Below are positions 1-56,445 of a stretch of DNA of 56,666 nucleotides, piece by piece (the stretch's first letter is position 1; each line of letters starts with the position of its first letter). The notes beneath the pieces were generated by a model, which did not search any database, was not told the origin of the DNA, and saw only the letters and a program-made list of their open reading frames with translations. The stretch covers positions 1 through 56,666 of the IMG/VR virus record IMGVR_UViG_3300030098_004888; one strand, 5' to 3'. Both the position numbers and the translations under genes were made by a program. The DNA is from a virus. Lineage: Duplodnaviria; Caudoviricetes.

Positions 1-93
1 TTAGAAAAGCCACACGATTGGGACTTATTATCTTTAGAAGAAAAAGAAAGTAGGTTAAATAAAGCACTGGAACAAATAACTAAAACTAAATAA
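1..93 (+). repeat. Exact copy of 56351-56443 (3' end of ORF 56240-56443); circular/bubble overlap
   Basis: 93 bp identical to 56351-56443, after which the two copies diverge. Confidence 0.95.
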
Positions 94-94
94 A

Positions 95-355
95 ATGAAA
101 GTAAAAATTCAACAAAGAAGTGTATATCACAAGTTCGCTGAGGTAGAAATAGATGTACCTAAAGATATTAAAGAGGAAGACATCCAAGATTATCTGGATG
201 ATAATGAACATCTATATGTGGACAAGATAGATAAAGCGATAAGTAAAGCTAAATATGAATATGGGTTTGGATTAGGAGATGGAATGGAAGATGAAAGAGA
301 GGAAAGCGAATGGAGATATGAATGTGAGAAACTAGAGTTAGGTGGACATTTATAA
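95..355 (+). CDS. Small acidic early protein (cassette allele A, gene 1)
   Basis: 86 aa ORF, A-rich leader, packed with neighbours. Confidence 0.8.
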   Translation: MKVKIQQRSVYHKFAEVEIDVPKDIKEEDIQDYLDDNEHLYVDKIDKAISKAKYEYGFGLGDGMEDEREESEWRYECEKLELGGHL

Positions 356-373
356 TAACTAAAAACTAAAACT

Positions 374-529
374 ATGGGTAACTTAATAAAAGAAAAAGGA
401 TTAACACATAAAGAAGTTGTGGAGATTGTAAGATTGTGGTATACCAATGGAATGTATAAAGATATTTTACAAGATGAAGATGGAAAAGATTTAGAAGAAA
501 TATGTGAGGATATTTTATATAACAACTAA
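374..529 (+). CDS. Small early protein MGNLIKEKG...ILYNN (allele A, gene 2; not in ORF track)
   Basis: 51 aa ORF read by hand, preceded by AAAACTAAAACT. Confidence 0.75.
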   Translation: MGNLIKEKGLTHKEVVEIVRLWYTNGMYKDILQDEDGKDLEEICEDILYNN

Positions 530-539
530 AACTAAAACT

Positions 540-707
540 ATGAAAGAAAAAACATTATCAGAACTTCAAAAACTAAAAGATAGGTTAGCTTGGTATGATT
601 TATTTGTGGATTATATTTATGAAATAGATAGTAATAAATATAATGAAGCGTGTGAATATGCAGATAACAAAATCTTTGATGTAATTAAACCAACTAAAAC
701 TAAATAA
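540..707 (+). CDS. Small early protein (start revised to ATG 540)
   Basis: AAAACTAAAACT-ATG start; the second copy at 56600 begins at the same ATG. Confidence 0.8.
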   Translation: MKEKTLSELQKLKDRLAWYDLFVDYIYEIDSNKYNEACEYADNKIFDVIKPTKTK

Positions 708-709
708 CT

Positions 710-940
710 ATGGAAATAAAAAAATTAATTAAAGAATTACAAGAGTGTTTAAAAGAGGGTAAAACTCACCTAACATTATTAGCAAACGCTACAAATGGAG
801 AAGATACAGATTTTGATATGTATATGAATGACCTAGAAGTATGGAAAGATGGAGAAGAAACTGCAACATTATTTATGAGCAATATAACAGAATTAGATGT
901 AAATGGAGAACCAATTAATCATAAACCAAAAAGAAAATAA
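710..940 (+). CDS. Small early hypothetical protein
   Basis: 76 aa, TAAATAACT-ATG junction. Confidence 0.8.
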   Translation: MEIKKLIKELQECLKEGKTHLTLLANATNGEDTDFDMYMNDLEVWKDGEETATLFMSNITELDVNGEPINHKPKRK

Positions 941-942
941 CT

Positions 943-1167
943 ATGGAAGTAAACGAAGCAAAAGAGTTTTTAAAATCAAAAGGTTATTATGTAGATAACC
1001 TATGGCATATAGAAGATGTTAAAGATATTAGACCTAATAACCTAACAGATGAACAAGCATATGAGATATTAGATAAAGCAATGAACAATGAATATCTAAT
1101 GAACGAAACTTGGGAAACAATAGATATTATATATAATGATTTATACAAAACAATTAAAACTAAATAA
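943..1167 (+). CDS. Small early hypothetical protein
   Basis: 74 aa, AAATAACT-ATG junction. Confidence 0.8.
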   Translation: MEVNEAKEFLKSKGYYVDNLWHIEDVKDIRPNNLTDEQAYEILDKAMNNEYLMNETWETIDIIYNDLYKTIKTK

Positions 1168-1169
1168 CT

Positions 1170-1571
1170 ATGGAAAAAGACAAAAGAATACTAGAATTTA
1201 AAATTAATATAGTAGAATTAGCTACTACATTAGCACACAAAAGATTAACAGAAATACTTCCTGATGAGATTATAATAGAAGATGAGCATATGACTAAATA
1301 TACAGAGGAAGGACAAATAAGATTTGATGAGCTATACAACGAGTATTGGGATGAGATTGCTGATGCAATGATATATCCTTGCTATACTGGAGAAAAGTTT
1401 TATACTATATTCCAAAAGACAACTGATAAACTTTATGGTTTACACGAATATGATATAATAGAAAGAGTATGGGATAGCCAAAGCGAAGAAATGTATAGGA
1501 TAGACCCTATGAGAAAAATGTTTAGAACAAGGGGAGAGGCAGAAGAATATGTAAAAGAAATAACAGAATAG
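1170..1571 (+). CDS. Early hypothetical protein
   Basis: 133 aa, TAAATAACT-ATG junction. Confidence 0.8.
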   Translation: MEKDKRILEFKINIVELATTLAHKRLTEILPDEIIIEDEHMTKYTEEGQIRFDELYNEYWDEIADAMIYPCYTGEKFYTIFQKTTDKLYGLHEYDIIERVWDSQSEEMYRIDPMRKMFRTRGEAEEYVKEITE

Positions 1572-1573
1572 CT

Positions 1574-1828
1574 ATGGATAGTATAAAAGATAGGGTATCA
1601 AAGTTTAACCCAAATGCATTAACAGCAGATGGTTTTGATGAAGCTATAATGGGTATGTCTTTAAAGATAGGAAGAAAACCATTAGTAGCATACGACTATG
1701 AAAAATGTATATCTATACTTATTGATAGAGATGATATGACTAGGGAGGAAGCAGAAGAATATATGGATTTCAATGTTCTAGGTGCTTATATGGGGGAAGG
1801 AACTCCTGTATTTATATTAACTATTTAA
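1574..1828 (+). CDS. Conserved phage hypothetical protein
   Basis: ADGFDEAIxG...EA.EY.DFNV.GAY.GE.TP motif, recognised from a widespread phage family. Confidence 0.8.
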   Translation: MDSIKDRVSKFNPNALTADGFDEAIMGMSLKIGRKPLVAYDYEKCISILIDRDDMTREEAEEYMDFNVLGAYMGEGTPVFILTI

Positions 1829-1837
1829 TTTAAAATT

Positions 1838-2077
1838 ATGGAAATAAAATTAGATTCACAAACATACATTGTAGACTATACACACGAAGAGGGTATGAAA
1901 AGTACAGACCCCTATATGATGCCAGATGACCCAGATGAAATAACTATTAATGAGGTTCATTGGGTAAGTGTAGATGAGTATGGTAATGAAACAATTCACG
2001 ACATAACAGATATGTATCACGAAAGGTTTGATGGTGAATTAGAAGACAAACTATGGGAAAAAATAAATAATAACTAA
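1838..2077 (+). CDS. Small early hypothetical protein
   Basis: 79 aa, AAAATT-ATG start. Confidence 0.75.
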   Translation: MEIKLDSQTYIVDYTHEEGMKSTDPYMMPDDPDEITINEVHWVSVDEYGNETIHDITDMYHERFDGELEDKLWEKINNN

Positions 2078-2079
2078 TA

Positions 2080-2097
2080 TTAGGGACAAGTCCCTAA
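2080..2097. promoter_or_regulatory. Palindromic operator-like site TTAGGGAC-AA-GTCCCTAA
   Basis: Perfect 8-bp arms; repeated at 50762, 51532, 51835 and 54938. Confidence 0.75.
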
Positions 2098-2121
2098 ATT
2101 AAAAATCACTATATTTATATT

Positions 2122-2520
2122 ATGAAGAAACACGAAATAAAACTAAAGGTAAGCGAGGAAGAACTAAACGAAATACTTGATGCTAATATGAGTAACAATG
2201 ATATGGTTGAAGCATTGATGTGTCAAGCAACAGGCAGTTTGTCTAGGTTTCTATCTAACAATGGGTTTAAAAAACATTTTCTAAAAAACTTGGGGGAAGT
2301 TATATTAAAACATCTTGTAAAAGATTTTGATAAAAAGAAATCTCTTGGTGCTCAGGATATGAGTGATATTTTTGACTTTGAGGACTTACTAACATTCTAT
2401 GTGTCTATTGACCCAGAAAGAAATACTGAAAAAATAAAGAGTTGCTTCACAGAAAAAAACCCAATAAAGTTTCTAATTGAAGACCTTCAATACTGGTTAA
2501 ACAAGGGGGATTGTGAATAA
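2122..2520 (+). CDS. Hypothetical protein
   Basis: 132 aa; TATATTTA at 2110-2117 lies 4 nt upstream of the ATG. Confidence 0.75.
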   Translation: MKKHEIKLKVSEEELNEILDANMSNNDMVEALMCQATGSLSRFLSNNGFKKHFLKNLGEVILKHLVKDFDKKKSLGAQDMSDIFDFEDLLTFYVSIDPERNTEKIKSCFTEKNPIKFLIEDLQYWLNKGDCE

Positions 2521-2559
2521 CTTTTAATAACTATTTATTAACAATATAATACAATTTAC

Positions 2560-2567
2560 TATATTTG
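2560..2567 (+). promoter_or_regulatory. Bacteroidota sigma-A -7 element (TATATTTG) for the recombination/replication operon
   Basis: Matches TAnnTTTG in an intergenic gap; DnaA-box-like 9-mers at 2512 and 2535. Confidence 0.7.
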
Positions 2568-2603
2568 TATCCACTATAATTTAATTAACTAAAACTTAAA
2601 ACT

Positions 2604-3116
2604 ATGAAAACTATCAAGATTAAAGGGAAGGACTATGTTGAAGTGAATGAGAGAATTAAACACTTCAGAAAAAACTACCCAAACTTTTCACTATCATCAC
2701 GAATCGTTGAAATTGATGCAGAAACTTGCATTATTAAAGCAGAGATTAGAAACGAATCAGGTGATGTTGTAGCTACTGGTCATGCTCACGAAGAGAAGTC
2801 AGCAGGATATATTAACAAAACTTCTTTTGTTGAAAACTGCGAAACATCTGCTTGGGGTAGAGCATTGGGCAACTTTGGTATTGGTATTGATACTTCTATT
2901 GCTTCAGCAGATGAGGTTGATATTGCTATTAAAAAGCAAAACACTAAACCATCAGCAAATGGTGTAGATAAAAAAACAAAGCTAACAAAGAAACAATTTG
3001 ATGGCATGATGCAGTTTATAATTGATGGCAAGAAAGCACAAGTAATGAGTGCTATGAAGAAATATGATATGAGTAGTGAGCAATCTAAAGCAATAAACGA
3101 AGCATTACTTAAATGA
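2604..3116 (+). CDS. Putative single-strand annealing protein (Rad52/Sak-like)
   Basis: GKxYVxVxERI and ENCETSAWGRAL motifs; adjacent to exonuclease and SSB. Confidence 0.65.
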   Translation: MKTIKIKGKDYVEVNERIKHFRKNYPNFSLSSRIVEIDAETCIIKAEIRNESGDVVATGHAHEEKSAGYINKTSFVENCETSAWGRALGNFGIGIDTSIASADEVDIAIKKQNTKPSANGVDKKTKLTKKQFDGMMQFIIDGKKAQVMSAMKKYDMSSEQSKAINEALLK

Positions 3117-3250
3117 AAAAACTAAAACTAAACTTCACAACATACAAAGGATTGGCTATGGGTTTTGTATGGGTAGATAATCACTTTGAAAAAGGAATTT
3201 GTTTTATACTTCCATTTTTCAGTATTGATTTTATGAAGAAGAAAAGATAA
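3113..3250 (+). CDS. Small hypothetical protein (45 aa, not in ORF track)
   Basis: ATGA overlap with upstream stop; fills the gap exactly. Confidence 0.55.
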   Translation: MKKLKLNFTTYKGLAMGFVWVDNHFEKGICFILPFFSIDFMKKKR

Positions 3251-3254
3251 AACT

Positions 3255-4016
3255 ATGGACTTAACAAAATTTATTAACAAGTTTGCTTGTGATGAAGCAT
3301 ACTACGGAGACCACGACTTTATAACTAACAGTCAAATGGGTCACTTAAAAAAGTCTCCACTAGCTTATCAAAAGTATAAAAAACATGGAATGCCTGATAC
3401 TAATGCTCTTATATTTGGTAGAGCATTTCACTGGGCAATACTAGAACCTGAAAAGTTTGAAGAGAAAACACACATATTTACTGGCAAGGTTAGGAGAGGT
3501 AAAGCTTGGGATGAGTTTAAAGAAGAGTATGATAAGGATGCTAATTGCATATTACTACAAAATGAATACGATGATTTAAAGTGTATGCAAGATGTTATAA
3601 TGAGTAATGCAGAATGTCAAGAACTATTATACGGTGGTAAAAACGAAGCAGTAAGTTGTTGGGAGGATGAAGATTCAGGGGTTTTTTGTAAAGGGAAAGC
3701 CGACAAAGTAAAAAAAGATTGTGTTATTGATTTGAAGACAACATCAAGTGGCGAGTTACACTCTTTTAAGGGGTCTGCTTATAAGTATGGTTATAACAGA
3801 CAGAGTGCGTTTTATATGGATGGTTTCAATAAAAACAAGTTTATATTTATTGTTATTGAAAAATCTTCTCCCTACAACTTATATATATATGATTGTAGTG
3901 ACCAGTTTGTAGAAAGTGGCAGAGAAGAATATAAATATCTACTGGATGTTTACAGAGAATATTTTATAGATGAAATTAAAGTACCTAGTCAATATTATTA
4001 CAAAGGATTATTATAA
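3255..4016 (+). CDS. PD-(D/E)XK exonuclease, RecE/exonuclease VIII-like (DUF3799-type)
   Basis: GRAFHxAILEP, KGKAD, IDLKTT, YxRQxAFY and IEK motifs. Confidence 0.85.
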   Translation: MDLTKFINKFACDEAYYGDHDFITNSQMGHLKKSPLAYQKYKKHGMPDTNALIFGRAFHWAILEPEKFEEKTHIFTGKVRRGKAWDEFKEEYDKDANCILLQNEYDDLKCMQDVIMSNAECQELLYGGKNEAVSCWEDEDSGVFCKGKADKVKKDCVIDLKTTSSGELHSFKGSAYKYGYNRQSAFYMDGFNKNKFIFIVIEKSSPYNLYIYDCSDQFVESGREEYKYLLDVYREYFIDEIKVPSQYYYKGLL

Positions 4017-4026
4017 AAACTAAAAC

Positions 4027-4464
4027 ATGAAAAGCTATAGATTATTAGACGAAATATTAGATGCTTGTGCAGAGTATGTTGACATACCTCCTGAAGATTT
4101 AAGAACTAGAAGAAGAGACAGAATATCTGTAGATGCTAGAAGGGTAGCAGTAAATCTATTTAAAAAATTAAGACCACACTCTACCTTATCTACCATTGGA
4201 AGTATGATTGGTAGAGACCATTCTTTAATAGTATACTTGTTAGCTAACCACAATTCTTTAATGGAAACCGATAATACATATAAAGATTTTTATGATTGTA
4301 TGTATATGGTTTTTGAAAACAGAAAAGATGTTAACGAGACTTCCCCTCTTGAGGATTTGCTAAATAAACATAAAAAACTAAAAACAGAGTACGAAAATTT
4401 AAGACAAGAATATTTAACAATGGAATCTAATTACAATAAAATCAAACAATTAACTAATTATTAA
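4027..4464 (+). CDS. DnaA domain IV-like helix-turn-helix protein with C-terminal coiled coil
   Basis: DL.TRRR.R....AR.....L.......TL..IG...GRDHS.I.Y pattern of the DnaA C-terminal domain. Confidence 0.75.
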   Translation: MKSYRLLDEILDACAEYVDIPPEDLRTRRRDRISVDARRVAVNLFKKLRPHSTLSTIGSMIGRDHSLIVYLLANHNSLMETDNTYKDFYDCMYMVFENRKDVNETSPLEDLLNKHKKLKTEYENLRQEYLTMESNYNKIKQLTNY

Positions 4465-8994: not shown

Positions 8995-9245
8995 TTTCTT
9001 TTGGAACCTTTTAGTCTTGACTTTTCTTTCTTGCCCCTGTTTTTAGAAGCTGTTATTATGGTTACAGTTTTAGAGTAAACCCCTTTTGGGTGATGAACAT
9101 CCATACCATCTCCCTTTTTAACCAATCCACCTTTCATGGCTTTTCTTCTTGATTTGTTTCTAGCAACTCTATCCTTCTTAGATTTCTTTGAGCTTTGAAA
9201 CTTGCCATACTCTTTTTTATAATTTCTTTTTACTGCTTTAGCCAT
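8991..9245 (-). CDS. Small basic HNH-like protein
   Basis: RNYKKEY...RN..RR...GDG.DVHH...NR motif. Confidence 0.6.
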   Translation of the reverse strand: MAKAVKRNYKKEYGKFQSSKKSKKDRVARNKSRRKAMKGGLVKKGDGMDVHHPKGVYSKTVTIITASKNRGKKEKSRLKGSKRK

Positions 9246-9543
9246 TTAATCTTTTCTTTAATGATTCTTTTGCTTTGCTAACTGATTTCTTTTTAACAAC
9301 TGGTTTCTTTTTCTTTGCCTCCTCTATTTCAGATAAGCCTTTTGTTATTTCTTCTGTCACTTCTTTTTTGTCTTCCTTAACTTCTTTCTTTTCTTCACGA
9401 ACAGAATCTAAGTCCTTCTTGTTTTGTTTAAGGTCGTTTTTAAGCTGTTTCTCACGCTTTCTGCTACTCTTTGATGAAAGACCTACAATCAGGGCAAGAA
9501 CCCCAAAAACACCTAATATTATTTTGGCAAGCTTTTTTAGCAT
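9238..9543 (-). CDS. Membrane-anchored basic coiled-coil protein (spanin-like candidate; start revised to 9543)
   Basis: MLKKLAK + one TM + Lys/Glu coil; TATATTTG 4 nt upstream. Confidence 0.65.
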   Translation of the reverse strand: MLKKLAKIILGVFGVLALIVGLSSKSSRKREKQLKNDLKQNKKDLDSVREEKKEVKEDKKEVTEEITKGLSEIEEAKKKKPVVKKKSVSKAKESLKKRLNG

Positions 9544-9556
9544 AATACAAATATAC

Positions 9557-9593
9557 AAAAAACCCAGCAAAAGCCTGGGCATGATGCTGGGTT
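9557..9593 (-). terminator. Intrinsic terminator (AACCCAGCA/TGCTGGGTT)
   Basis: 9-bp perfect stem followed by U-run on the - strand. Confidence 0.8.
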
Positions 9594-9627
9594 CAAAACT
9601 AAAACTATGTGCACTAATGTGCGAAGT
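9557..9627 (-). ncRNA. Candidate small RNA antisense to early-gene start motif
   Basis: TACCTTTG promoter (9632-9639), GCAC/GUGC hairpin, unpaired CAUAGUUUUAGUUUUG, 9-bp terminator stem plus U-run. Confidence 0.7.
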
Positions 9628-9631
9628 ATTA

Positions 9632-9639
9632 CAAAGGTA
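9632..9639 (-). promoter_or_regulatory. -7 promoter element TACCTTTG driving the sRNA
   Basis: TAnnTTTG consensus; no ORF between it and the terminator. Confidence 0.7.
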
Positions 9640-9678
9640 GTAAATATTTATACACCTTTAATTAATATTTATTCACAG

Positions 9679-9903
9679 TTATTTCCTGTTTGCAAACTTC
9701 TCAAGTCCTGCAATACCAAAGCAACCTAATACAACCATTACAAACGAATTATATATAGCTTCATTGATAACCAGGTCTTTACCAATCCAACCTGTAATTA
9801 CATCAGCTAGCATCACTATCACCATAATCAAAAAAGCAAGAAATCCTATTATGCTTTTCTCATTATACTTGTTATCATCTTTAAATATTTCTTTCCAGCT
9901 CAT
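9679..9903 (-). CDS. Holin-like protein, 2 TM helices (start revised to MSWKE)
   Basis: 74 aa, two hydrophobic segments, basic C-terminus. Confidence 0.6.
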   Translation of the reverse strand: MSWKEIFKDDNKYNEKSIIGFLAFLIMVIVMLADVITGWIGKDLVINEAIYNSFVMVVLGCFGIAGLEKFANRK

Positions 9904-9910
9904 ATTGTTT

Positions 9911-12900
9911 TTATTTTTTTTGTTTTTGTTCTTTTGTTTCTTGTTCTTTTCTGTCATCTTTTTTAGGTTTAAAAAACCTATTGTAAGTTCGTTCTATTAC
10001 TGTTGTTGGAAGAGGTAGGGGTCGTATCATATCAAAGAAATTTCCCATAAATTCATCCGTAGTATATTCATCTAGATTTAAAATTGCTTTTATAAATTCT
10101 GCTCCTCCTTTTACTGATTTTGCTAAGGTGCCTGTAACTGGGTCTATTTCAAAATCATATTGTTGTCCAAAAAATTGTTGGTAAAAATAAGTAATCAAAT
10201 CACCTACTATTGGGTAAAAAGCATAAGCACCAGTAGCTGTTGTTAATAAATGATTACCTATAACACTATCCCAAAGTTCATCTCTTTCATCTTCAGGGGT
10301 AAATGCATATTTTATAAGGCTTCCTGCCACTGTAAAAAGTTGAGGCAATACAAACCAAAACATTACCATTCCTTTTAGTGCTTGTCTTTGGCTACCCTTA
10401 CCAGTTTTAAAATTGTTGCTGTGGACATTAAAATTTCTAGCTAAAGCTAATGGGGAATTTAACAGTGTTGTAAAAAAACTATACGGACCTTTTTGCATTG
10501 CACCTAAAAATTCTGAGGCACCTGATTGCTGAGTCATTTCCCCTACAAACTCAACCTTTTTTAAAGCTTTTTCTGGACTAAGCTTTTCAACATTAATTAA
10601 ATAATTGTAATAAGGAATACCACCAAACATAAACCCTCCCATGTCTCCATATTTTGTTAAAAAGAATGCGTTGTTTCTCCATTTGCTCAGATTCCTTTTT
10701 AACCCTGTTAGGTCTTTTTCTAATTCAAGATAAAGCTCTTCGTTTATATTAAAGTTTGCAAACCTATCCTGAAGAATAGGACTCCTAGAAATTAAATCTT
10801 TTAACTGAGAAACAGTTTTTTTAGGGGTTGCTAACATTGTGCCAAAGTTTTTCAACCATTTACCAGCACCCATATATGAAGCATATCCTGCTGCTGATGT
10901 TAACTGCTTAATACCAGGATGCCAGTTAAATGCCAAAACAGAAGTTAAAAAATATCGCCTTGCACTCATTAATCCTGCTATATATCCATCTAGTGGTTCA
11001 GGTGTATTAAAAATAGTTTGAAAATGAAATGTTAATAAATTTATCATTTCAGCACCATCGGTTTTTTTCCCCTCAACTACTTTCTCACCTTTAAGTCCTT
11101 TTTTTCTTATTATTGTGTTAAATATTTTATTCCTTGTTTCTGGATATCTTTTTATTAATGCATTTTTAACCTTGTCAGAAAGTATAGTATTTTGCAGATA
11201 AAAACCTGTTGGCCCATATGCTATAAACCGAGACATATCATTTAAATAACTAACAGAATTTAGTATAAAGTCATCAGGTGATAATACTTTTTTAGCTTGA
11301 GGAACTCTGTCTATAAGACTTTTACTAAATACAGTTTTCAATACATCTGACGTTGGGTTTAAAAAATTAAAAGGAATATCTTCAGGTTTTTTATTTTGTT
11401 CTTTTTCTTCGCCAGTAAGAGTTACTTTACCAGAATATCCTTCTTGAAAAGTAGCAGGAATTTTAAACATTTCCATGCTTGTGTTATTTATTTCCTCTCT
11501 AAAAGATGGAAAAAACTCTACTATCATTCTATCTACAAACTCTTTTTGACCTGGTGTTAATATTTCATTAATAATCCTATCCCCTTCTTTTGTTAGTATT
11601 GCTTCTCCTTCTTCGTTTCTTTCTTTAATTATCCCATCTCTTATCAGGTATAGGTCGTTTTGTTTATTTTTAGTAAAAGCATACAAGCTCATTAATTGAG
11701 CAGAATTAAAATCAGGCTTACCTCCTGCATATTCAATTACAAATCTTTTGTTTGATAATTTATCTCTTTTGTTGTCTATTGTTTCTTTAGATATTTTTCT
11801 AATTAAATCTGTACCTCGTTTTTTTCTAGCAATAAAAATGTTTCTTCCTTCTTGTATTTTTTCCCTAACTAATGTAACCAAGTTTCCTTCAAATGTTTTA
11901 TTTGCAGGGTCTGTGTCTAAAAATTCAAGAAGAGTGTATAGATTTTCATTTTGACGTTCATATACACCCCTAAGGCCAGGAACAATATTAGATAGTTTAA
12001 ATCCACCAGTTTTTCTTTTACCCTTTTTTTCTATTCCTCCTTCTATGTCTCTAAGCATAAGGTCTATATCCTTTTTCCATTCTTTTCTTTGTTCTTTTTC
12101 TGATTCCTTTCTTTGCTCTTTTGCTGTTTTAATAAACCTATTTAAAAAATCTAATCTTTCTTTAACATATTCTAATGGGGTTTCAGGTAGTGTTATATCA
12201 TGAAAAGATAAAGCCATTAATCTATCCATTAAATTTTCAGGTATTTCATGTAAGCCTCTAACCTCTTCTAGTATATTTAAAGCCTCTTGTTTTATTTTCT
12301 CTGTATCTTTTTCTTTAATAGCTCTTGTAACATCTTTAAGAAATCCAATACCATCTACGGACAGTGATTTGTTTTGCCCTACAAAAGCTCCTGCTTGATT
12401 TTTTATATACCCCTTTGGATTTGATATTTTTTTTATTTCATTAACCAACTCTACTTTTTCAGCATGATTAACATCATCAAGTAATTTGTTTACTTTATTT
12501 ACAATATTTTTTATGTCCTTAGGGGATTTGCTTGTTTTTATTAGACTTAAAAGCCTATTAACATACTTTGAGTTTATTGTTCGTTCTGGGAATAAATTTA
12601 AAGTTTCTTTTACAAAATTTAAAACCTCTTCTCTACCTTCTTTTTTTGACAGGTCACTTACTTTTTGTAATTCTTTTAACTTTCTTTTAAGCTCAACTCT
12701 TTCAGTTACTTTTATAGTTATTCTTTTGTCTCTTGCTTTAAGACCCAAATCTTTTAAAGATGGTGGTTTTGGTTTTTTATATTGTATACCTAAAAATTTT
12801 CGGCTTTGAGTAATAGATGGCTGGGTAATAATTTTATCATATACTTTTTGTTTAGATATTGTTTCCCAATCAGAAATTTGTTTTTTTGTCCATATTTTAT

Positions 12901-50725: not shown

Positions 50726-51229
50726 ATGAACACAAAAACACAAATTAAAAAAAGCAAAAAATTAGGGACAGTCCCTAAAAAACTTACTCCAAAAATGTCG
50801 CATTTTGTAAAAATGTTTGATGACATTTTAACGGGTAAAATGTCCAACGGCAAATTATCGGAGCAAGTAAGCGACATTATATTAAAAAATTCTAATGACG
50901 TTTTTTTGTTAGATGTTGCAAAGCATTTTTATCTAGATAGTGGTTATAATAGCCAAGCCGAAAAATTAAAAACTTTACGCAGAACAATAAACAGGGAATC
51001 AAAAAAATTATTTAACGATGATAAAATAAAAAATGCGATTTCGTTTAAATTGGTAAAGGGTGAAAATTTCAAAGAAAATAAAAACGATTTTTCCTTTAGC
51101 TATTCAAGTTTAGAAGTTAAAGAATCGGTTGTAAATCTTAATAAGTTAATCCAAAAAATTAGAGATAATAAATTAGATTTAACTGATGAGAATAAAAAAG
51201 AACTTTACGAATTGAGCAAAGGACTTTAA
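50726..51229 (+). CDS. First early gene, hypothetical
   Basis: 167 aa with own promoter and terminator; contains palindrome at 50762-50778. Confidence 0.75.
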   Translation: MNTKTQIKKSKKLGTVPKKLTPKMSHFVKMFDDILTGKMSNGKLSEQVSDIILKNSNDVFLLDVAKHFYLDSGYNSQAEKLKTLRRTINRESKKLFNDDKIKNAISFKLVKGENFKENKNDFSFSYSSLEVKESVVNLNKLIQKIRDNKLDLTDENKKELYELSKGL

Positions 51230-51248
51230 AAACTCAATCAAACATTTT

Positions 51249-51278
51249 AAAGGGGTGCAAATTGTACCCCTTTTTTTT
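51249..51278 (+). terminator. Intrinsic terminator
   Basis: GGGGTGCA/TGTACCCC stem plus T8. Confidence 0.85.
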
Positions 51279-51305
51279 GCCCTCGTCCTAGCCCAAAAAT
51301 TCAAA

Positions 51306-51441
51306 ATGATAGTGATATGATAGTGAACCAATGATAGTGAATATCCCTGCGTTCTAAAATTTTATCCCAATAATTTTGTTAGAAAATTCCCTGCATTTTA
51401 AAATTTTATCCCAATAATTTTGTTAATAACTTCCCTGCATT
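51306..51441. repeat. 3x ATGATAGTGA followed by a 44-bp tandem repeat (two units plus start of a third)
   Basis: 10-mers at 51306, 51317, 51331; TCCCTGC at 51344, 51388, 51432. Confidence 0.85.
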
Positions 51442-51531
51442 TCATTTGGGTTAATGTTAATTTGTTGTTAATTCTTCGTATATTTACAATATCATTAAAG
51501 CAAAAGCTATTTAATGATAGAAACAAAAAAA

Positions 51532-51549
51532 TTAGGGACTTGTCCCTAA
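51532..51549. promoter_or_regulatory. Palindrome TTAGGGAC-TT-GTCCCTAA
   Basis: Perfect arms, downstream of promoter 51479. Confidence 0.75.
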
Positions 51550-51577
51550 ACTATTAGAAACTAAAAACTAAAATAAA

Positions 51578-51838
51578 ATGTCTAAAATAGATTGGAGTAA
51601 ATTCAAAAATATTCAAGAGTTCTACGAATGGGAACGAGAGCAACAAAGAATTAAAAATAGTAAGCCAATAAATAGAGCTAAAAAAACTAGCGATGGTTGG
51701 TTTATTCCTGCGATGAATAGCAAAAGATATTCTTGTGAGATAAATAGACAATCATATAAAAAGATGACTACTCCAAGAATAAAAATGATGCAGAAAAAAG
51801 ATAGAATGCAAGAACGAAATATTAAAGTAAATTTCTAG
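51578..51838 (+). CDS. Small early protein
   Basis: 86 aa ORF. Confidence 0.65.
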   Translation: MSKIDWSKFKNIQEFYEWEREQQRIKNSKPINRAKKTSDGWFIPAMNSKRYSCEINRQSYKKMTTPRIKMMQKKDRMQERNIKVNF

Positions 51839-51883
51839 GGACTAATCCCTAAAATATATATTGTTTAACTTAAATTTAAAACT

Positions 51884-52039
51884 ATGAGCAGATTACAAAA
51901 AAGTTTATTTAACATCTTATGCCCAAGAGCAATACAACTATTTCAAATGTTGCATGAATTTGAATATATGAGATTATCTTCAAGTGGTAGAGAAACGCTT
52001 GACGAACTAGCAGAATTATTAACTAAACCAAATAGCTAA
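51884..52039 (+). CDS. Small early protein (51 aa, not in ORF track)
   Basis: AAAACT-ATG start. Confidence 0.7.
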   Translation: MSRLQKSLFNILCPRAIQLFQMLHEFEYMRLSSSGRETLDELAELLTKPNS

Positions 52040-52051
52040 AATTATATAACT

Positions 52052-52258
52052 ATGAAAAAATTACTTTTATTAAATATAGTATTTAATATACCTATGAGCA
52101 AACCTAAAAGAGTAACTAACTATGTATGGATAAAATACAAGAGTTATCAGAATTTCTTAAAAGGAAAAGCAATAGTATCAAAAAAAAGCATAGAGGATAT
52201 ATACTACAACAACTTTAAAGAAAATATGCCCAAAAACACATACTATAAAATTAACTAA
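52052..52258 (+). CDS. Small early protein
   Basis: 68 aa, AACT-ATG start. Confidence 0.65.
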   Translation: MKKLLLLNIVFNIPMSKPKRVTNYVWIKYKSYQNFLKGKAIVSKKSIEDIYYNNFKENMPKNTYYKIN

Positions 52259-52281
52259 TTATTAACTAAAACTAAAACAAA

Positions 52282-52902
52282 GTGGAAACAAAACAATTAA
52301 TTTATGAAATGCTAACTGAAAACACTGGTAAACACTTTTTAGATAGTGGTGGCGATGATAACAGATGGTGGCAGAGAAACCAAAAGAAAACACTACAAGA
52401 TTTTGAAGATGAAGAAGAAGAAACTATGCACAAAGATGGGGACTACTATTATAGAAATGTAAGTGTATTTCATTATTTAAGTCAGCTAGAATTAGATAAT
52501 ATATGTCGTGACTTCAACGAGCTAAACACAAATACAAAAGATTGGGAGGGTGAAGCTTATGGAGTATGTAAAACAGCTTGGAAATTCCTTAAAGTAGGTG
52601 GTAGAGGGTTTAGTTGTACCTCAGATTTCTTTGAGATTGAAGAAGGCAGAACATTTAACACGTACAACGGAGAAAGTGATTTAAGTCAAATACTACAAGG
52701 TACTTGGCTAACAATTAACGATGAAGAATATCTATTACTACAAATACACAATGGTTGTGATGCAAGAGGAGGATATACAGATGCAAAACTATTTAAAACA
52801 AGAGATGGATATGGTTTGATACACGAATACTTGCAAGAGTTTATGTATCAAGAAGAAATAGAAGAAGAATTAAAATATAGAGAAGAAACAATAACTAAAT
52901 AA
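52282..52902 (+). CDS. Conserved phage early protein
   Basis: ENTG.HFLDSGG, NTYN.E, QIH.G.D.RGGYT motifs. Confidence 0.8.
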   Translation: METKQLIYEMLTENTGKHFLDSGGDDNRWWQRNQKKTLQDFEDEEEETMHKDGDYYYRNVSVFHYLSQLELDNICRDFNELNTNTKDWEGEAYGVCKTAWKFLKVGGRGFSCTSDFFEIEEGRTFNTYNGESDLSQILQGTWLTINDEEYLLLQIHNGCDARGGYTDAKLFKTRDGYGLIHEYLQEFMYQEEIEEELKYREETITK

Positions 52903-52910
52903 TTAAAACT

Positions 52911-53138
52911 ATGAAGAAAATTTATCTACCATTACTCAAAGAACAAAAAGAACGTAAAGTTTTATTCTCATCTACTTTATCAAAGTATAAGTTTGAAACT
53001 GAAGAAGATAATAGGCACGAACTAGATGAGGAATTGTTCTTTAAAGATTGTGCAGAGTTCAGAAGAAGAAAAGAACTATTAAAAGATGACTCATTCTTTG
53101 ATGCATCTCACTTTAAATATAATATAATAAGGAGCTAA
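52911..53138 (+). CDS. Small early protein
   Basis: 75 aa, AAAACT-ATG. Confidence 0.75.
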   Translation: MKKIYLPLLKEQKERKVLFSSTLSKYKFETEEDNRHELDEELFFKDCAEFRRRKELLKDDSFFDASHFKYNIIRS

Positions 53139-53154
53139 TTAAAATTAAATCAAA

Positions 53155-53430
53155 ATGAAAGTAAATGAAAAGCAATTAGAAGTTATTAGGATATGTAGAA
53201 AATACATACCTAATTTTTATGTCAATAAGAAATTTGATATAATAGAATTAATTTTATCTAATCCCTCGTTCGTTGAAGATGCACTTGGCTTTACGCAGTT
53301 CGCACAAGAAAACAAAATGAGTGAAGAAGATATTGTACAAACTATTATACACGATATAGCAGGAATGATTAAAGATGATGAACATTTTTTACCAAGAGTA
53401 AATGGATATTCAAATCTAACTAAAGCATAG
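53155..53430 (+). CDS. Small early protein
   Basis: 91 aa ORF. Confidence 0.75.
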   Translation: MKVNEKQLEVIRICRKYIPNFYVNKKFDIIELILSNPSFVEDALGFTQFAQENKMSEEDIVQTIIHDIAGMIKDDEHFLPRVNGYSNLTKA

Positions 53431-53440
53431 CAAAAAAAAA

Positions 53441-53569
53441 ATGAGAGTAGAAGTAAAACCACAATTCATTTTAATAACTGACGTTATAAATGGATACCTA
53501 GTAAAAGAAAGATACATTGGCTACACTATTAATGAAGCCAAGAAAAGATTCAAGTATAAATACAAATAA
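53441..53569 (+). CDS. Small early protein (42 aa, not in ORF track)
   Basis: Hand-read MRVEVK...YIGYTINEAKKRF. Confidence 0.6.
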   Translation: MRVEVKPQFILITDVINGYLVKERYIGYTINEAKKRFKYKYK

Positions 53570-53711
53570 AGAGGTTAAAACCTTTACAAAGTAAGCGAAA
53601 TATAAGGGAGTTAATTATTTAAATAATTAAACACTTTGTAAGGGGGTTAATAGAGTGCCGAGAAAAAGACAACAAGGCAAATTGTCTACTGAATTTAACC
53701 ACCTCTTTTTT
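53568..53711 (+). ncRNA. Candidate structured RNA with possible pseudoknot
   Basis: Nested helices 53568-75/53701-08, 53581-92/53633-44, 53645-50/53695-700. Confidence 0.5.
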
Positions 53712-53716
53712 AAAAC

Positions 53717-53856
53717 AAAAAAAAGCATAATATGGGCTTGATACATTACGTTCCTTTCTGTGAGTTTGCTATTTCACTTCTTTGTGTAGCTGTTATGACG
53801 AACGAACGATTTTTTTTGAGGGGGGTTAAATAAACTATGTGTTATTTAATCCTAAC
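53717..53856 (-). ncRNA. Candidate antisense small RNA carrying CACAUAGUUUAUUUAA
   Basis: TACCTTTG at 53861-53868; G-U-containing stem plus U8 at 53717-53750. Confidence 0.5.
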
Positions 53857-53916
53857 AAGGCAAAGGTACACAAAATATTTTAATAAGTCAAGTGTTTAAC
53901 TAAAAAAACTAAAATT

Positions 53917-54114
53917 ATGGAAAATATTATTAAAGATTATGTTTTATACGATAGGGCAAACGATAGTTTGTTAAAATTTGATAATGGGGAGATAGTATTA
54001 TATGGGGATAAAAATGAGGCAATGGAAGATTGTTATGGTAACGAAGAAGTAATACAATTTGAAAATTTACCTAAAGACAAACAAAAAGAAATTATTAATC
54101 AATTAAATAAATAA
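53917..54114 (+). CDS. Small early protein
   Basis: 65 aa, AAAACTAAAATT-ATG. Confidence 0.75.
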   Translation: MENIIKDYVLYDRANDSLLKFDNGEIVLYGDKNEAMEDCYGNEEVIQFENLPKDKQKEIINQLNK

Positions 54115-54118
54115 AATT

Positions 54119-54382
54119 ATGGAAGTAAAAAACAAACAAGCAAGAGAAAACTTTATAAAATGGTATTTTAAAAGTTATTCAAAATCTATTATGGAAGATA
54201 TGATAGAAGAATTAGTTAATGAGGGAACAAGTAATTGGAGTTTTGAAGGACTATTAGAAATTGCACAAGATATACCAGATAATATAGCAAATGAATTAAA
54301 ATACTCTGATTATTTAGATGATGAAATGAGGGCAGATTTAGAGGCACAAGATTATGATGTGTTTGGAGAAAATAAAATATAA
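54119..54382 (+). CDS. Small acidic early protein
   Basis: 87 aa. Confidence 0.75.
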   Translation: MEVKNKQARENFIKWYFKSYSKSIMEDMIEELVNEGTSNWSFEGLLEIAQDIPDNIANELKYSDYLDDEMRADLEAQDYDVFGENKI

Positions 54383-54400
54383 ACTTAAATAAATAAAATT

Positions 54401-54865
54401 ATGGAAACAAAAACTTATGTATGGGAAACTTATTATGATGTGTATGCTTATATTCAAAATGAAATAGATTTTTTCAAAAGAGATAAACAAGAATTTCTTG
54501 TGAGTATATTAGGAGATGAAGAAAGAGAAACTGAAAGTGTAACAGATAAGGAAATAGAAGAACACTTTAACAATGACTATTATATAGGGGAATATCATTG
54601 GGAATATTTTATAGAGGATTTAGAGGAAGAGTTTAGACAACATATTGGTAAAACAATATATGTAGAGGGAAGAAATATAGGATGGAGAAATAGAAGTGGG
54701 CATAAAGAGTTTGAACTAAAGAGTGGAGAAGATATATTTAGAGAGATAGCCCCTGAATGTGATTTAACATATTACATAACAAAAGAAAAAGAGGGGGAGT
54801 ATGAAGTGAGAATAAGCCACCACGATAGCCCAATGGGAGAGTATTATAACATTAAAATTAAATAA
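54401..54865 (+). CDS. Early protein
   Basis: 154 aa; GWRNRSG and SHHD.P.GE motifs. Confidence 0.8.
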   Translation: METKTYVWETYYDVYAYIQNEIDFFKRDKQEFLVSILGDEERETESVTDKEIEEHFNNDYYIGEYHWEYFIEDLEEEFRQHIGKTIYVEGRNIGWRNRSGHKEFELKSGEDIFREIAPECDLTYYITKEKEGEYEVRISHHDSPMGEYYNIKIK

Positions 54866-54920
54866 AATGAAATTGTTGATAACTTTTTTGGGCTATTGAT
54901 AATTATATATGTAATATTAT

Positions 54921-54955
54921 TAACTTTGTATAAACAATTAGGGACTCGTCCCTAA
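54921..54955 (+). promoter_or_regulatory. Promoter TAACTTTG followed by palindrome TTAGGGAC-TC-GTCCCTAA (54938-54955)
   Basis: Consensus -7 element; palindrome 9 nt downstream. Confidence 0.75.
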
Positions 54956-54972
54956 AACTAAAAACTAAAACT

Positions 54973-55209
54973 ATGGAAGCAAATGAATTTAAAAGTGCAA
55001 TGGCTTTTGACAGATTAGAAACAAACGATTCTTATGATGTCTATTGGCTACATTCAGAAGATAATAATAGGATAGAACCAGATGACTTATATCATTGTGA
55101 GTATAACTTTGAAGATGCTTGTAAAGAGATAGTTCAGAATGGAGAACCTTATGTTAACTACCACTTTGATGATGAAACTATTGAAGAGTGGTTAGAGGAA
55201 GAAAACTAA
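54973..55209 (+). CDS. Small acidic early protein
   Basis: 78 aa, AAAACTAAAACT-ATG. Confidence 0.8.
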   Translation: MEANEFKSAMAFDRLETNDSYDVYWLHSEDNNRIEPDDLYHCEYNFEDACKEIVQNGEPYVNYHFDDETIEEWLEEEN

Positions 55210-55308
55210 CGATAGTCAGGTTGAGGTTAGGCTAAACCAACTTTGTAAAACTATACTATTTGGCGTGTATAGTTCCCTGCTTTTTATTAATTATTAAAAA
55301 CTAAAACT

Positions 55309-55458
55309 ATGAAAGAACTAAAATTAGATGAACAAGAATTAGATTATCTAACAATGGTGGTTGAACAAAATTTAGATGATGAACCAGAAGAATATGGAGA
55401 AAACCACAAACAAATGTTAGAGGACTTATATAGTAAACTAATAATCTTAAATAAATAA
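55309..55458 (+). CDS. Small early protein (49 aa, not in ORF track)
   Basis: AAAACTAAAACT-ATG. Confidence 0.75.
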   Translation: MKELKLDEQELDYLTMVVEQNLDDEPEEYGENHKQMLEDLYSKLIILNK

Positions 55459-55462
55459 AACT

Positions 55463-55594
55463 ATGGAAACAATCAAAGAGCTAAAAGAATTAGTATCTCT
55501 TTTTAAACACAGAAAACTATTTACCAACGATAGTATAATAATGGTTGGAGATTTAGAAAAATTAGAAGAATTAATAAATAAAATTAAAAACTAA
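55463..55594 (+). CDS. Small early protein (43 aa, not in ORF track)
   Basis: AAAACT-ATG. Confidence 0.7.
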   Translation: METIKELKELVSLFKHRKLFTNDSIIMVGDLEKLEELINKIKN

Positions 55595-55598
55595 AACT

Positions 55599-55760
55599 AT
55601 GGAAACAAAAAACAACAAACAAGAACATTCTTTATTTATAGAAGGAAGAATAGTAAAAGTAAAATGTACAAAAGAAGAATTAACAAAGTATATGCAAAAG
55701 ATAAAAGACAAATGTAAAGAATTAGAATCTTTACAAAGCTTTAAAGGAGAATTAATTTAA
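55599..55760 (+). CDS. Small early protein (53 aa, not in ORF track)
   Basis: AAAACTAAAACT-ATG. Confidence 0.7.
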   Translation: METKNNKQEHSLFIEGRIVKVKCTKEELTKYMQKIKDKCKELESLQSFKGELI

Positions 55761-55786
55761 CCTAATAATCTTAAATAAATAAAACT

Positions 55787-55975
55787 ATGGAAAAGAAAAT
55801 AACTTATGATGACACAAGAGATATAGCTATCAGATGTGTTGACAAACTAATAGAATTAGATATTTTATCCGAAGAAGAACACAACTTTGAATTACAAGAT
55901 TTAATACAAGATGAAATAAATAATGTATTAGGATTAGATATAGATGATAACTTTGAAATAACTATTAAAAAATAA
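55787..55975 (+). CDS. Small acidic early protein
   Basis: 62 aa, AAAACT-ATG. Confidence 0.75.
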   Translation: MEKKITYDDTRDIAIRCVDKLIELDILSEEEHNFELQDLIQDEINNVLGLDIDDNFEITIKK

Positions 55976-55979
55976 AACT

Positions 55980-56222: not shown

Positions 56223-56239
56223 ACTTAAAAAATAAAACT

Positions 56240-56443: not shown

Positions 56444-56445
56444 CT

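What the first reader, a model, noticed from the sequence alone, without database searches (positions are those of the whole stretch)
9557..9639. Small RNA that is the exact antisense of the shared early-gene start motif: a candidate early-gene off switch
Seen: between two lysis-type genes on the - strand is a self-contained unit. It has a TACCTTTG promoter element, then ~70 nt reading ACUUC-GCAC-AUUA-GUGC-A-CAUAGUUUUAGUUUU-G-AACCCAGCA...UGCUGGGUU-UUUU: a 5' hairpin, an unpaired seed and a terminator, with no ORF. The 15-nt seed is the perfect reverse complement of AAAACTAAAACTATG. That motif is the leader plus start codon at 362-376, 528-542, 54961-54975, 55297-55311 and 55587-55601. The 9-nt core AAAACTATG precedes about ten more genes (2604, 3255, 4857, 51884, 52911, 55463, 55787, 55980, 56240, 56600), and AAAATTATG starts would pair through G-U. 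The structural gene starts I inspected (terL, portal, scaffold, MCP, 38184, 38693) lack the core. Known: Bacteroidota initiate translation from A-rich leaders without an SD, and trans sRNAs repress by occluding start codons. Inference: one phage sRNA silences a whole class of early genes, and perhaps host mRNAs, through a common address.
Basis: partly seen in the sequence, partly recalled or inferred. Interest (0 to 1): 0.92.

Follow-up and report, generated by a model that had tools for sequence, protein, structure and literature searches.

The report
Phage RNA complementary to early-gene starts
A marine Flavobacteriia-type phage carries a promoter-to-terminator unit of about 70 bases whose unpaired stretch is the exact mirror of the leader-plus-start-codon shared by its early genes, and related phages carry matching units, so it is probably a small RNA that masks a whole class of start sites.

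Summary
Window 9557-9639 (- strand) holds a TAnnTTTG-type -7 box, a small 5' hairpin, an unpaired 16-nt stretch and a strong hairpin plus U-run. The stretch is the exact complement of a 15-mer that is leader plus ATG of five early genes (6 exact copies, 0 in 100 shuffles). By duplex energy it matches 20 of 32 early-array starts and 0 of 23 late, 0 of 21 middle-block and 0 of 6 other early-strand starts. Shuffled seeds average 0.42.

The opposite-strand ORF is not conserved (1-40 aa), so it is not a gene. Units of the same build sit at the end of the late block in related phages (terL 55-70% identical). Hairpins and flanks differ, but the CAU-plus-U-rich stretch persists. In G022, G020, G037, G033 and G034 the unit's own seed matches start regions on the early strand and, apart from 5 of 41 in G022, not on its own strand. 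One seed carries U5 where its best target has A5.

Against this: no RNA data; four relatives have units with almost no matching phage targets; one complete array-bearing genome has no unit.

Best reading (about 0.55): a trans-acting RNA, stand-alone or 3'-UTR-borne, that masks start regions. It is a new variant of a known kind.

The parts
9632..9639 (-). -7 promoter box TACCTTTG (Bacteroidota TAnnTTTG type)
   Evidence: The 54 nt around and upstream of it are 74% identical to the promoter region of the + strand gene at 2604. The consensus is taken from passages of PMC7366714.
9557..9626 (-). predicted RNA of about 70 nt, from about 5-6 nt after the box to the end of the U-run
   Evidence: fold, -23.6 kcal/mol; z = -3.8. 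The start site is inferred from three leaderless-type starts in this window, where TAnnTTTG lies 1-5 nt before an ATG. No transcript was observed.
9611..9622 (-). 5' hairpin GCAC-AUUA-GUGC
   Evidence: Absent from most relatives, so it is probably not essential.
9594..9609 (-). unpaired 16-nt seed CAUAGUUUUAGUUUUG, complement of leader plus AUG
   Evidence: Identical 15-16 nt occur in the units of G020 and G022, whose flanks and hairpins are unrelated.
9557..9593 (-). intrinsic terminator: 9-10 bp G+C-rich stem and a U6 run
9548..9555 (-). second -7 box TATATTTG, 4 nt before the ATG at 9543 (leaderless-type start of the next gene)
   Evidence: L349 and L279 have the same arrangement.
9238..9543 (-). 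downstream gene, 101 aa, Rz-like spanin
   Evidence: phrog_1026, E 1.5e-4.
9679..9957 (-). upstream gene, 92 aa, two-helix membrane protein (holin-like by context only)
362..376 (+). exact 15-nt target: leader plus ATG of the gene at 374
   Evidence: -17.9 kcal/mol.
528..542 (+). exact 15-nt target (gene at 540)
   Evidence: -17.4.
54961..54975 (+). exact 15-nt target (gene at 54973)
   Evidence: -17.9; -19.6 with the full 5' part.
55297..55311 (+). exact 15-nt target (gene at 55309). Its weak homologue in G005 is one of that phage's two best seed matches.
55587..55601 (+). exact 15-nt target (gene at 55599)
50726..56666 (+). right part of the early array of small genes. With 1-4464 it forms the class in which 20 of 32 starts pair at -10 kcal/mol or better.
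1..4464 (+). left part of the same early array

Best explanation
The unit encodes a short non-coding RNA. It is made from its own TAnnTTTG promoter, or is also carried as the 3' end of the late-operon transcript that stops at the same terminator. Its unpaired CAU-plus-U-rich stretch base-pairs with the A-rich leader and AUG of mRNAs that carry the (AAAACU)2-AUG start region. In this phage that is a class of about 20 small early genes. Pairing covers positions -12 to +3, which are the start codon and the adenines at -3, -6 and -12 that promote initiation in Flavobacterium, so the 30S subunit cannot load and the class is repressed together. What is shown: the anatomy, the complementarity and its restriction to one gene class, and the conservation and partial co-variation of such units in relatives. 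What is inferred: that the RNA is made, when it is made, and that pairing represses translation.
For: (1) Complementarity is exact and far beyond chance: 6 exact 15-mers against 0 in 100 shuffles. (2) It is specific to one class. At -10 kcal/mol or better the counts are 20 of 32 early-array starts, 0 of 6 other early-strand, 0 of 23 late and 0 of 21 middle-block starts. 300 composition-preserving shuffles of the seed gave a mean of 0.42 and a maximum of 11. (3) There is no gene on the other strand. The ORF after the mirrored ATG is 1 aa in G022, G005 and L307, 5 aa in L304, 12 aa in G002, 19 aa in G004 and 40 aa here. (4) Units of the same build (box, unpaired seed, hairpin, U-run) lie at the end of the late block in relatives with terL 55-70% identical. 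Eleven of these units, plus three from unrelated contexts, fold with the seed unpaired. In 8 G005-type units, 14 of 16 seed columns are invariant, while the hairpin varies and 3 of 13 pairs show compensatory changes. (5) The seed is conserved without its flanks. The window, G020 and G022 share 15-16 identical seed bases, but their hairpins and 5' parts do not align, and their coding DNA is only about 65-75% identical. (6) Seeds match their own early side. G020: 27 of 45 against 0 of 8 on the unit's strand, shuffles mean 1.85, max 9. G037: 8 of 23 against 0 of 4. G033: 6 of 17 against 0 of 12. G034: 4 of 12 against 0 of 13. For the last three, 0 of 150 shuffles reached the observed count, and all three were found through a protein, not through the seed. 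Counting starts at least 80% identical to the anti-seed gives 35 of 224 early-side and 0 of 169 late-side starts over seven genomes. (7) There is co-variation of form. The G033/G034 seed has GG and U5 where the window has AG and U4, and the best G034 target has A5. CATAG-type seeds occur in the three array-bearing genomes, and CATAAT-type seeds in four genomes where ATTATG starts outnumber ACTATG starts in three of the four. (8) The mechanism has precedent in the phylum. GibS uses an unstructured 5' seed to pair with start regions and represses them without Hfq or ProQ (passages of PMC7366714). A at -3, -6, -12 and -13 promotes initiation in F. johnsoniae (passages of PMC6847099). (9) In G022, G020 and G037 no gene follows the unit on its strand, so there it cannot be a leader.
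Against: There is no RNA evidence of any kind; see Tried and rejected. G005, G002, G004 and G006 carry well-conserved units, yet their own seeds reach -10 kcal/mol on only 2 of 61, 3 of 46, 1 of 42 and 0 of 40 starts, and the counts are not clearly above shuffles. G035 has 3 of 36, matched by 28% of shuffles. G019, a complete 36-kb genome with a 7-copy AAAACTATG array, has no such unit. For G022 the control was not clean: with its 28-nt seed the observed 27 starts equalled the maximum of 200 shuffles (mean 6.9), and 5 of 41 starts on the unit's own strand also passed. The window, G020, G022 and G037 share early genes, so seed and array may have been inherited together, and the number of independent events is small. 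The duplexes are almost pure A-U (best -17.9 to -19.6 kcal/mol). The -7 boxes of many relatives end in A, C or GA instead of G. The window's promoter resembles an early/middle promoter, which sits poorly with a late-acting off switch. All gene starts come from my own crude ORF caller (longest ATG ORF of at least 40 aa, greedy removal of overlaps), not a trained gene finder.
Confidence: 0.55

Rival explanations
1. The RNA is made as described, but its main targets are host mRNAs with the generic strong Bacteroidota start region. Its role would be host shut-off or ribosome re-allocation, and the match to the phage's own early genes would be secondary because those genes copy the host's optimal leader.
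For: The G005-type seed is highly conserved yet has almost no targets in its own phage. Its complement, CAAAACTAAAYATTATG, is a common real gene start. Most of the 62 viral hits are starts of long ORFs. The row-capped scan of species genomes returned 120 stretches, many of them Flavobacteriia, Chitinophagia or Bacteroidia by record title (I did not count them), upstream of diverse genes.
Against: No single host gene family recurs among those hits. The host is unknown. In the window, G020, G037, G033 and G034 the phage's own early starts are matched well above shuffles.
Confidence: 0.15
2. The stretch is a protein-binding or stabilising element at the 3' end of the late mRNA, or simply part of the late-operon terminator region. 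Its complementarity to start regions has no function.
For: The unit always sits at the end of a late block. U-rich single strands bind many RNA-binding proteins (general knowledge). Four relatives lack matching targets.
Against: This reading does not explain the invariant CAU, the exact 15-16 nt match in three genomes, the restriction to the early side (35 of 224 against 0 of 169), or the U5/A5 change.
Confidence: 0.12
3. It is a cis-acting control unit for the genes that follow. It would be either an attenuator whose terminator is read through, or a promoter plus sigma-dependent pause (the seed contains TAGTTTTG, itself a TAnnTTTG) plus terminator, like lambda PR'-6S-tR' with Q.
For: In G005-type relatives the small basic gene follows the terminator with no promoter of its own. 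TAGTTTTG is present in the window, G005, G002, G004 and G020.
Against: In the window, L349 and L279 a separate TAnnTTTG box 4 nt before the ATG follows the terminator. In G022, G020 and G037 nothing follows on that strand. The final G of the internal box is lost in G022, L209, L349, L091, L070 and L054. The spacing between the two boxes runs from 14 to 30 nt.
Confidence: 0.08
4. The 15-mer works as double-stranded DNA, as a binding or recombination site that also marks the junctions of the early gene cassettes. The copy at 9595-9609 would be one more site that happens to be inverted.
For: The linker lies at the breakpoints of the differing record ends (first-stage note e1-6325170). The motif is a tandem AAAACT repeat.
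Against: An inverted copy placed exactly between a promoter box and a terminator recurs in many unrelated contigs: 9 of 120 loci from the 15-mer scan passed my crude filter. The seed varies in step with the leader.
Confidence: 0.05
5. The + strand ATG at 9607 starts a real 40-aa gene with the usual early leader.
For: A perfect leader and an open frame of 40 codons.
Against: There is no TAnnTTTG box within about 100 nt upstream on the + strand. The frame overlaps the - strand promoter and the end of the 92-aa gene. The equivalent frames in relatives are 1-19 aa and unrelated.
Confidence: 0.02

Closest known systems
GibS of Bacteroides thetaiotaomicron (trans-encoded sRNA)
   Same: Same phylum. 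Both have an unstructured A/U-rich 5' seed, pair across the start codon and Kozak-like adenines, repress without Hfq or ProQ, and have an extended seed (passages of PMC7366714).
   Different: GibS is chromosomal, longer, and has two known metabolic targets. The unit here is phage-borne, about 70 nt, and addresses a shared leader of about 20 genes. There is no sequence similarity and no Rfam match.
T4 RegA translational repressor
   Same: Both are a single phage-encoded factor that competes with the ribosome at the A/U-rich start regions of many (about 30) mostly early mRNAs (passages of PMC3014915).
   Different: RegA is a 122-aa protein that recognises degenerate sites. Here the recogniser would be an RNA reading its targets by Watson-Crick pairing.
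Classical phage antisense RNAs (lambda OOP and aQ, P22 sas; also P22 sar and P1 c4, which I recall from memory and did not check)
   Same: Short phage RNAs with promoter and terminator that pair with phage mRNAs, several of them at ribosome-binding sites (passages of the review PMC12197685).
   Different: Those RNAs are encoded opposite or next to a single target gene. Here the targets lie 5-46 kb away, number about 20, and are unrelated proteins that share only the leader.
Lambda PR'-6S RNA-tR' unit
   Same: A promoter, a short terminated transcript and a position next to lysis genes (recalled; 6S is named only in passing).
   Different: No Q-like gene was identified. The unit lies at the end of the late block, not its start, and in three relatives no gene follows it.

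Membership tests
trans-acting base-pairing sRNA that blocks translation initiation | own promoter and intrinsic terminator bounding a short region with no ORF | tested here: met
   TAnnTTTG box, hairpin plus U6, and no conserved ORF on either strand.
trans-acting base-pairing sRNA that blocks translation initiation | single-stranded seed conserved more strongly than the rest of the RNA | tested here: met
   The seed is unpaired in the window, in 11 of 12 syntenic units (all but L349) and in the 3 units from unrelated contexts (L279, L284, L325). 14 of 16 seed columns are invariant in 8 units while the hairpin varies. The seed is identical in the window, G020 and G022, whose flanks are unrelated.
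trans-acting base-pairing sRNA that blocks translation initiation | complementarity to target start regions above chance | tested here: met
   Window: 20 of 32 against a shuffle mean of 0.42. G020, G037, G033 and G034 are above all or nearly all shuffles. Not met in G005, G004, G006 and G035.
trans-acting base-pairing sRNA that blocks translation initiation | a discrete transcript exists and represses its targets | not testable with these tools
   No RNA run holds the phage. No cultured close relative was found in the phage collection.
cis-encoded antisense RNA (OOP/sar type) | encoded on the strand opposite its target gene and overlapping it | tested here: not met
   The opposite strand has no conserved gene. 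The exact targets lie at 362-542 and 54961-55601.
promoter-pause-terminator antitermination unit (lambda PR'/Q type) | genes downstream on the same strand whose expression needs read-through | tested here: not met
   The window has a separate promoter after the terminator. G022, G020 and G037 have no downstream gene on that strand.
promoter-pause-terminator antitermination unit (lambda PR'/Q type) | conserved promoter-like pause element in the initial transcribed region | tested here: inconclusive
   TAGTTTTG is present in the window and five relatives. Its last G is lost in others, and the spacing varies from 14 to 30 nt.
any Rfam family | covariance-model match at the gathering score | tested here: not met
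   0 matches in the whole window. Only chance-level hits up to E = 10 in 9500-9700.

The most novel reading that the evidence does not exclude
Flavobacteriia-type phages carry a family of 'anti-Kozak' RNAs. Each is a 50-75-nt RNA at the end of the late block whose 5' stretch mirrors the optimal SD-less start region. Leader and seed co-evolve as an address system, so that one RNA switches off an entire exchangeable array of early genes, and possibly the best-translated host mRNAs, at the level of ribosome loading. It would be an RNA counterpart of T4 RegA in a phylum that initiates translation without Shine-Dalgarno pairing.
Probability: 0.4. Interest if true: 0.88.

Novelty: new variant of a known kind. 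Interest (0 to 1): 0.8.

Why it matters
Sets of phage early genes are usually shut off by proteins such as T4 RegA or by changes in transcription. A single small RNA that reads a shared start-region address would be a new and very economical form of temporal control. It would explain why unrelated, freely exchanged early genes in these phages keep a stereotyped leader. It would also be a natural tool for probing how Bacteroidota ribosomes choose start codons without Shine-Dalgarno pairing. I found no such RNA class in three full-text searches, in the passages I read of a 2025 review of phage sRNAs, or in Rfam. The units are frequent enough in marine viral contigs to be surveyed systematically.

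Tried and rejected
RNA evidence: no RNA holder was listed for the stretch. The four DNA runs I laid only show that contigs from three other runs bridge the unit (X14 8731-9744, X17 9122-9864, X9 9389-9839). The table of differing letters was cut before this region, so I could not read natural variation in the seed.

Close relatives: blastn of 8600-16300 against cultured phages found nothing. The C-terminal part of the 2110-aa protein has no close relative in viral contigs, in the protein collection or in 17 related records.

L349 is the closest syntenic relative (upstream gene 84% identical), and its seed differs. It would have been the best co-variation test, but only 6.3 kb of its 55-kb contig could be read. 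The four early-side starts inside that piece match neither seed. A scan for its seed in viral contigs gave four unrelated hits.

Host targets: the scan of species genomes for the complement of the G005-type seed gave diverse genes and no promoter-seed-terminator unit among the 20 loci I checked.

A leader peptide on the unit's own strand was rejected. The AUG inside the G005-type seed is absent from G004, L209 and the window, and the frames differ (read by eye). Pairing in cis with the downstream gene's own start was checked by eye only and rejected.

The second candidate at 53868-53825 reaches -10 kcal/mol on only 2 of 32 early starts.

p84 and DUF5675 have no close homologue in a cultured Bacteroidota phage in the collection searched, so no laboratory model could be named. 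I built no covariance model, because the hairpins are not homologous. Supplementary files of papers were not opened, and target lists or promoter tables in them might bear on the comparison with GibS and F. johnsoniae.

Full report
WHAT THE WINDOW IS. The window is a whole IMG/VR virus record of 56,666 bp, estimated 93% complete. Its two ends overlap: the stretch after 534 repeats after 56594. The capsid-type protein is 29% identical to proteins of Flavobacterium and Cellulophaga phages, and the gene starts have the A-rich, SD-less look of Bacteroidota. Small + strand genes fill 1-8626 and 38184-56666. A - strand block (8623-38090) holds terminase, portal, capsid and two giant proteins.

On the - strand the 92-aa gene stops at 9679. 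After it come TACCTTTG (9639-9632), a 4-bp hairpin (9622-9611), CATAGTTTTAGTTTTG (9609-9594), a 9-10-bp G+C-rich hairpin and T6 (to 9557). Then come TATATTTG (9555-9548) and, 4 nt later, the ATG of a 101-aa Rz-like spanin. The 70-nt RNA predicted from about 9626 folds with the 16-mer unpaired. An 80-nt version has z = -3.8 against shuffles. The mirrored 15-mer occurs six times exactly, always on the + strand. Five copies are leader plus ATG of small genes and one is this site; 100 shuffles gave none. The 9-mer core occurs 17 times against 2 expected. Rfam and ARAGORN find nothing.

CLASS SPECIFICITY. I called genes with a crude ORF rule and scored RNAduplex energies between the seed and each start region (-25 to +9). 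At -10 kcal/mol or better the counts are 20 of 32 starts in the early arrays (50.7-56.7 kb and 0-4.5 kb), 0 of 6 other early-strand genes, 0 of 23 late genes and 0 of 21 genes of the 38-50 kb block. 300 shuffled seeds averaged 0.42 (maximum 11) on the early class, and seeds of other relatives scored 0-5. The leader has A at -3, -6 and -12, and often at -13. These are the positions that promote initiation in Flavobacterium johnsoniae (passages of PMC6847099).

NOT A GENE ON THE OTHER STRAND. The 40-aa + strand frame overlaps the - strand promoter. No TAnnTTTG box lies within about 100 nt upstream of it. In relatives the frame after the mirrored ATG is 1 to 19 aa and unrelated.

RELATIVES CARRY THE UNIT. 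Terminase searches gave 51 related loci (55-70% identity), and I fetched seven records whole. In G005, G004, G002 and G006, and in fragments L205, L209, L217, L304 and L307, an intergenic unit follows a DUF5675 cell-wall-enzyme-like gene and precedes a small basic gene homologous to window 8991-9245. The unit is a TAT(A/C)TTT(A/G) box, 4-22 nt, CATAAT(G/A)TTTAGTTTTG, a long hairpin and a T-run. Eight of these units align with 14 of 16 seed columns invariant, while the hairpin shows 3 of 13 pairs with compensatory change. Among 80 metagenome loci with the 92-aa gene, only two copies of the window itself and L349 have a unit after it. L349 has the same synteny and the same second promoter, but its seed is CATAATATGAAGTTTTG.

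THE SEED IN ARRAY-BEARING RELATIVES. A scan for the 15-mer in viral contigs led to records with arrays of AAAACTATG starts. G022 is a complete 64-kb genome whose terL, portal and capsid are 57-69% identical to the window's. It has 16 copies. One of them, at 25237, is the mirrored form of a unit lying right after its DUF5675 gene at the end of the late block: a box, 23 nt, CATAGTTTTAGTTTTAAGTTTT, an unrelated hairpin and a U-rich tail. The opposite frame is 1 codon, and no gene follows on that strand. G020 (33% complete, 9 copies) has CATAGTTTTAGTTTTG followed by yet another hairpin. So 15-16 seed bases are identical in three phages whose flanks do not align and whose coding DNA is about 65-75% identical.

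SEED AGAINST OWN STARTS, GENOME BY GENOME. With 16-17-nt seeds, starts at -10 kcal/mol or better number 19 of 84 (window), 14 of 80 (G022) and 12 of 53 (G020). For G005, G004, G002 and G006 with their own seeds the counts are 2 of 61, 1 of 42, 2 of 46 and 0 of 40. ACTATG and ATTATG starts number 18/12, 16/16 and 17/17 in the first three, and 0/13, 1/7, 4/12 and 4/1 in the last four. G020 has 27 of 45 early-side against 0 of 8 late-side starts (shuffles mean 1.85, maximum 9). G022, with its full 28-nt seed, has 22 of 39 against 5 of 41, but the observed total of 27 only equals the shuffle maximum, so that control is weak. Counting starts at least 80% identical to the anti-seed gives 35 of 224 early-side and 0 of 169 late-side starts over seven genomes.

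A SAMPLE NOT CHOSEN BY THE SEED. I searched for DUF5675 homologues (80 loci). By eye, units follow the gene in 8 of the 80: L602/L613 (G006 type), L572 (G022-like, seed beginning TAT), L576/L579 (seed CATGG-T5-AGTTTG) and L596/L598/L599 (seed CATTGTTTTGTTTG). The other 72 have a gene or something else there. I fetched their records and scored each seed against its own genome. G034 has 4 of 12 early-side against 0 of 13, G033 has 6 of 17 against 0 of 12, and G037 has 8 of 23 against 0 of 4; in each case 0 of 150 shuffles reached the observed count. G035 has 3 of 36 against 0 of 10, which is not significant (28% of shuffles). The best G034 target reads AAAACT-A5-CTATG, against A4 in the window. 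This matches the seed's U5 against U4, and the seed's extra G pairs with U as a wobble.

WIDER OCCURRENCE. Of the 120 loci from the 15-mer scan, 9 pass a crude filter: opposite frame under 35 aa, and a hairpin of -8 kcal/mol or better plus a T-run within 85 nt. These are L091, L030, L070 and L054 (one family: TATATTAG, 5-6 nt, seed, hairpin, T7) and L092, L116, L106, L034 and L008. This set was ascertained by the seed itself, so it shows recurrence of the architecture, not conservation. L279, L284 and L325, found with the G005-type seed, have the same build in other contexts. L284 could also be read as a 15-aa ORF on the other strand.

WHAT SPEAKS AGAINST. No RNA run holds the phage. Four unit-bearing relatives and G035 lack convincing phage targets. 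G019, complete and with a 7-copy array, has no unit. The array-bearing genomes share early genes, so independence is limited. The promoter region here is 74% identical over 54 nt to that of the early/middle gene at 2604, so late timing would have to come from the RNA being carried on late transcripts. Gene starts are from my own caller.

MECHANISM AND RIVALS. The most economical reading is a trans-acting RNA, stand-alone or as the 3' end of late mRNAs, that masks leader plus AUG. GibS does this in Bacteroides without Hfq (passages of PMC7366714). In outcome it resembles T4 RegA, which blocks about 30 start regions (passages of PMC3014915). A cis leader or antitermination unit is contradicted where a promoter follows the terminator or where nothing follows at all. 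A dsDNA site does not predict the promoter-terminator frame. A host-directed role is compatible with everything seen, and it may be the main role in the G005-type phages, whose seed mirrors a start region common in Bacteroidota genomes.

VERDICT. The feature is real and conserved in architecture, and its sequence is tied to early start regions in six records in all, the window included. Function is inferred, not shown. I rate confidence in the pairing-RNA reading at 0.55, interest at 0.8, and novelty as a new variant of a known kind.

Noticed in passing
window 9548-9543, 45709-45724, 41907-41918: Three genes have a TAnnTTTG box only 1-5 nt before their ATG (TATATTTG-tatt-ATG, TATATTTG-tagtt-ATG, TATCTTTG-c-ATG). 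This suggests leaderless mRNAs. The same arrangement follows the unit in L349 and L279.
   Followed up: partly
window 53868-53825 (- strand): A second TACCTTTG box points against the early genes and is followed 19 nt later by CACATAGTTTATTTAAC (first-stage note e1-6325171). This seed reaches -10 kcal/mol on only 2 of 32 early starts. Its terminator, about 140 nt on, is weak.
   Followed up: partly
window 1-606 and 56351-56666: The record's ends overlap but are not identical throughout (the sequence after 534 repeats after 56594). The record is probably a circularly permuted or terminally redundant genome assembled from more than one variant.
   Followed up: no
window 9679-9957; loci L334-L413: The 92-aa two-helix membrane gene is a widely shared cassette in marine metagenomes (80 loci at 79-100% identity). 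It has many different downstream partners, often a gene beginning MKYTREQI..., which looks like a holin-endolysin pairing.
   Followed up: partly
window 8991-9245; L175:9407-9724: The small, very basic protein after the unit has an invariant GDG..HH core. It has no Pfam family, and its only cultured-phage homologues are in Vibrio phages of the ICP2 type.
   Followed up: partly
window 41916-42392: The DUF5675 protein that precedes the unit in relatives sits on the other strand block in this phage, so the genome has been rearranged. In crAss-like records the family is annotated as L,D-carboxypeptidase/transpeptidase.
   Followed up: partly
G018 (record behind L094): It has 13 AAAACTATG copies on one strand, but many are followed by frames of only 1-30 codons under table 11. 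This may mean another genetic code or a different use of the motif.
   Followed up: no
G021 (record behind L060): All 6 AAAACTATG copies are followed by TTATAAT or ATATAAT and a 2-codon frame. Here the motif looks like part of a promoter rather than a start region.
   Followed up: no
window 4027-4464: A stand-alone DnaA C-terminal helix-turn-helix protein (Pfam Bac_DnaA_C, E 1.3e-12). Its own start pairs with the seed at -12.3 kcal/mol.
   Followed up: no
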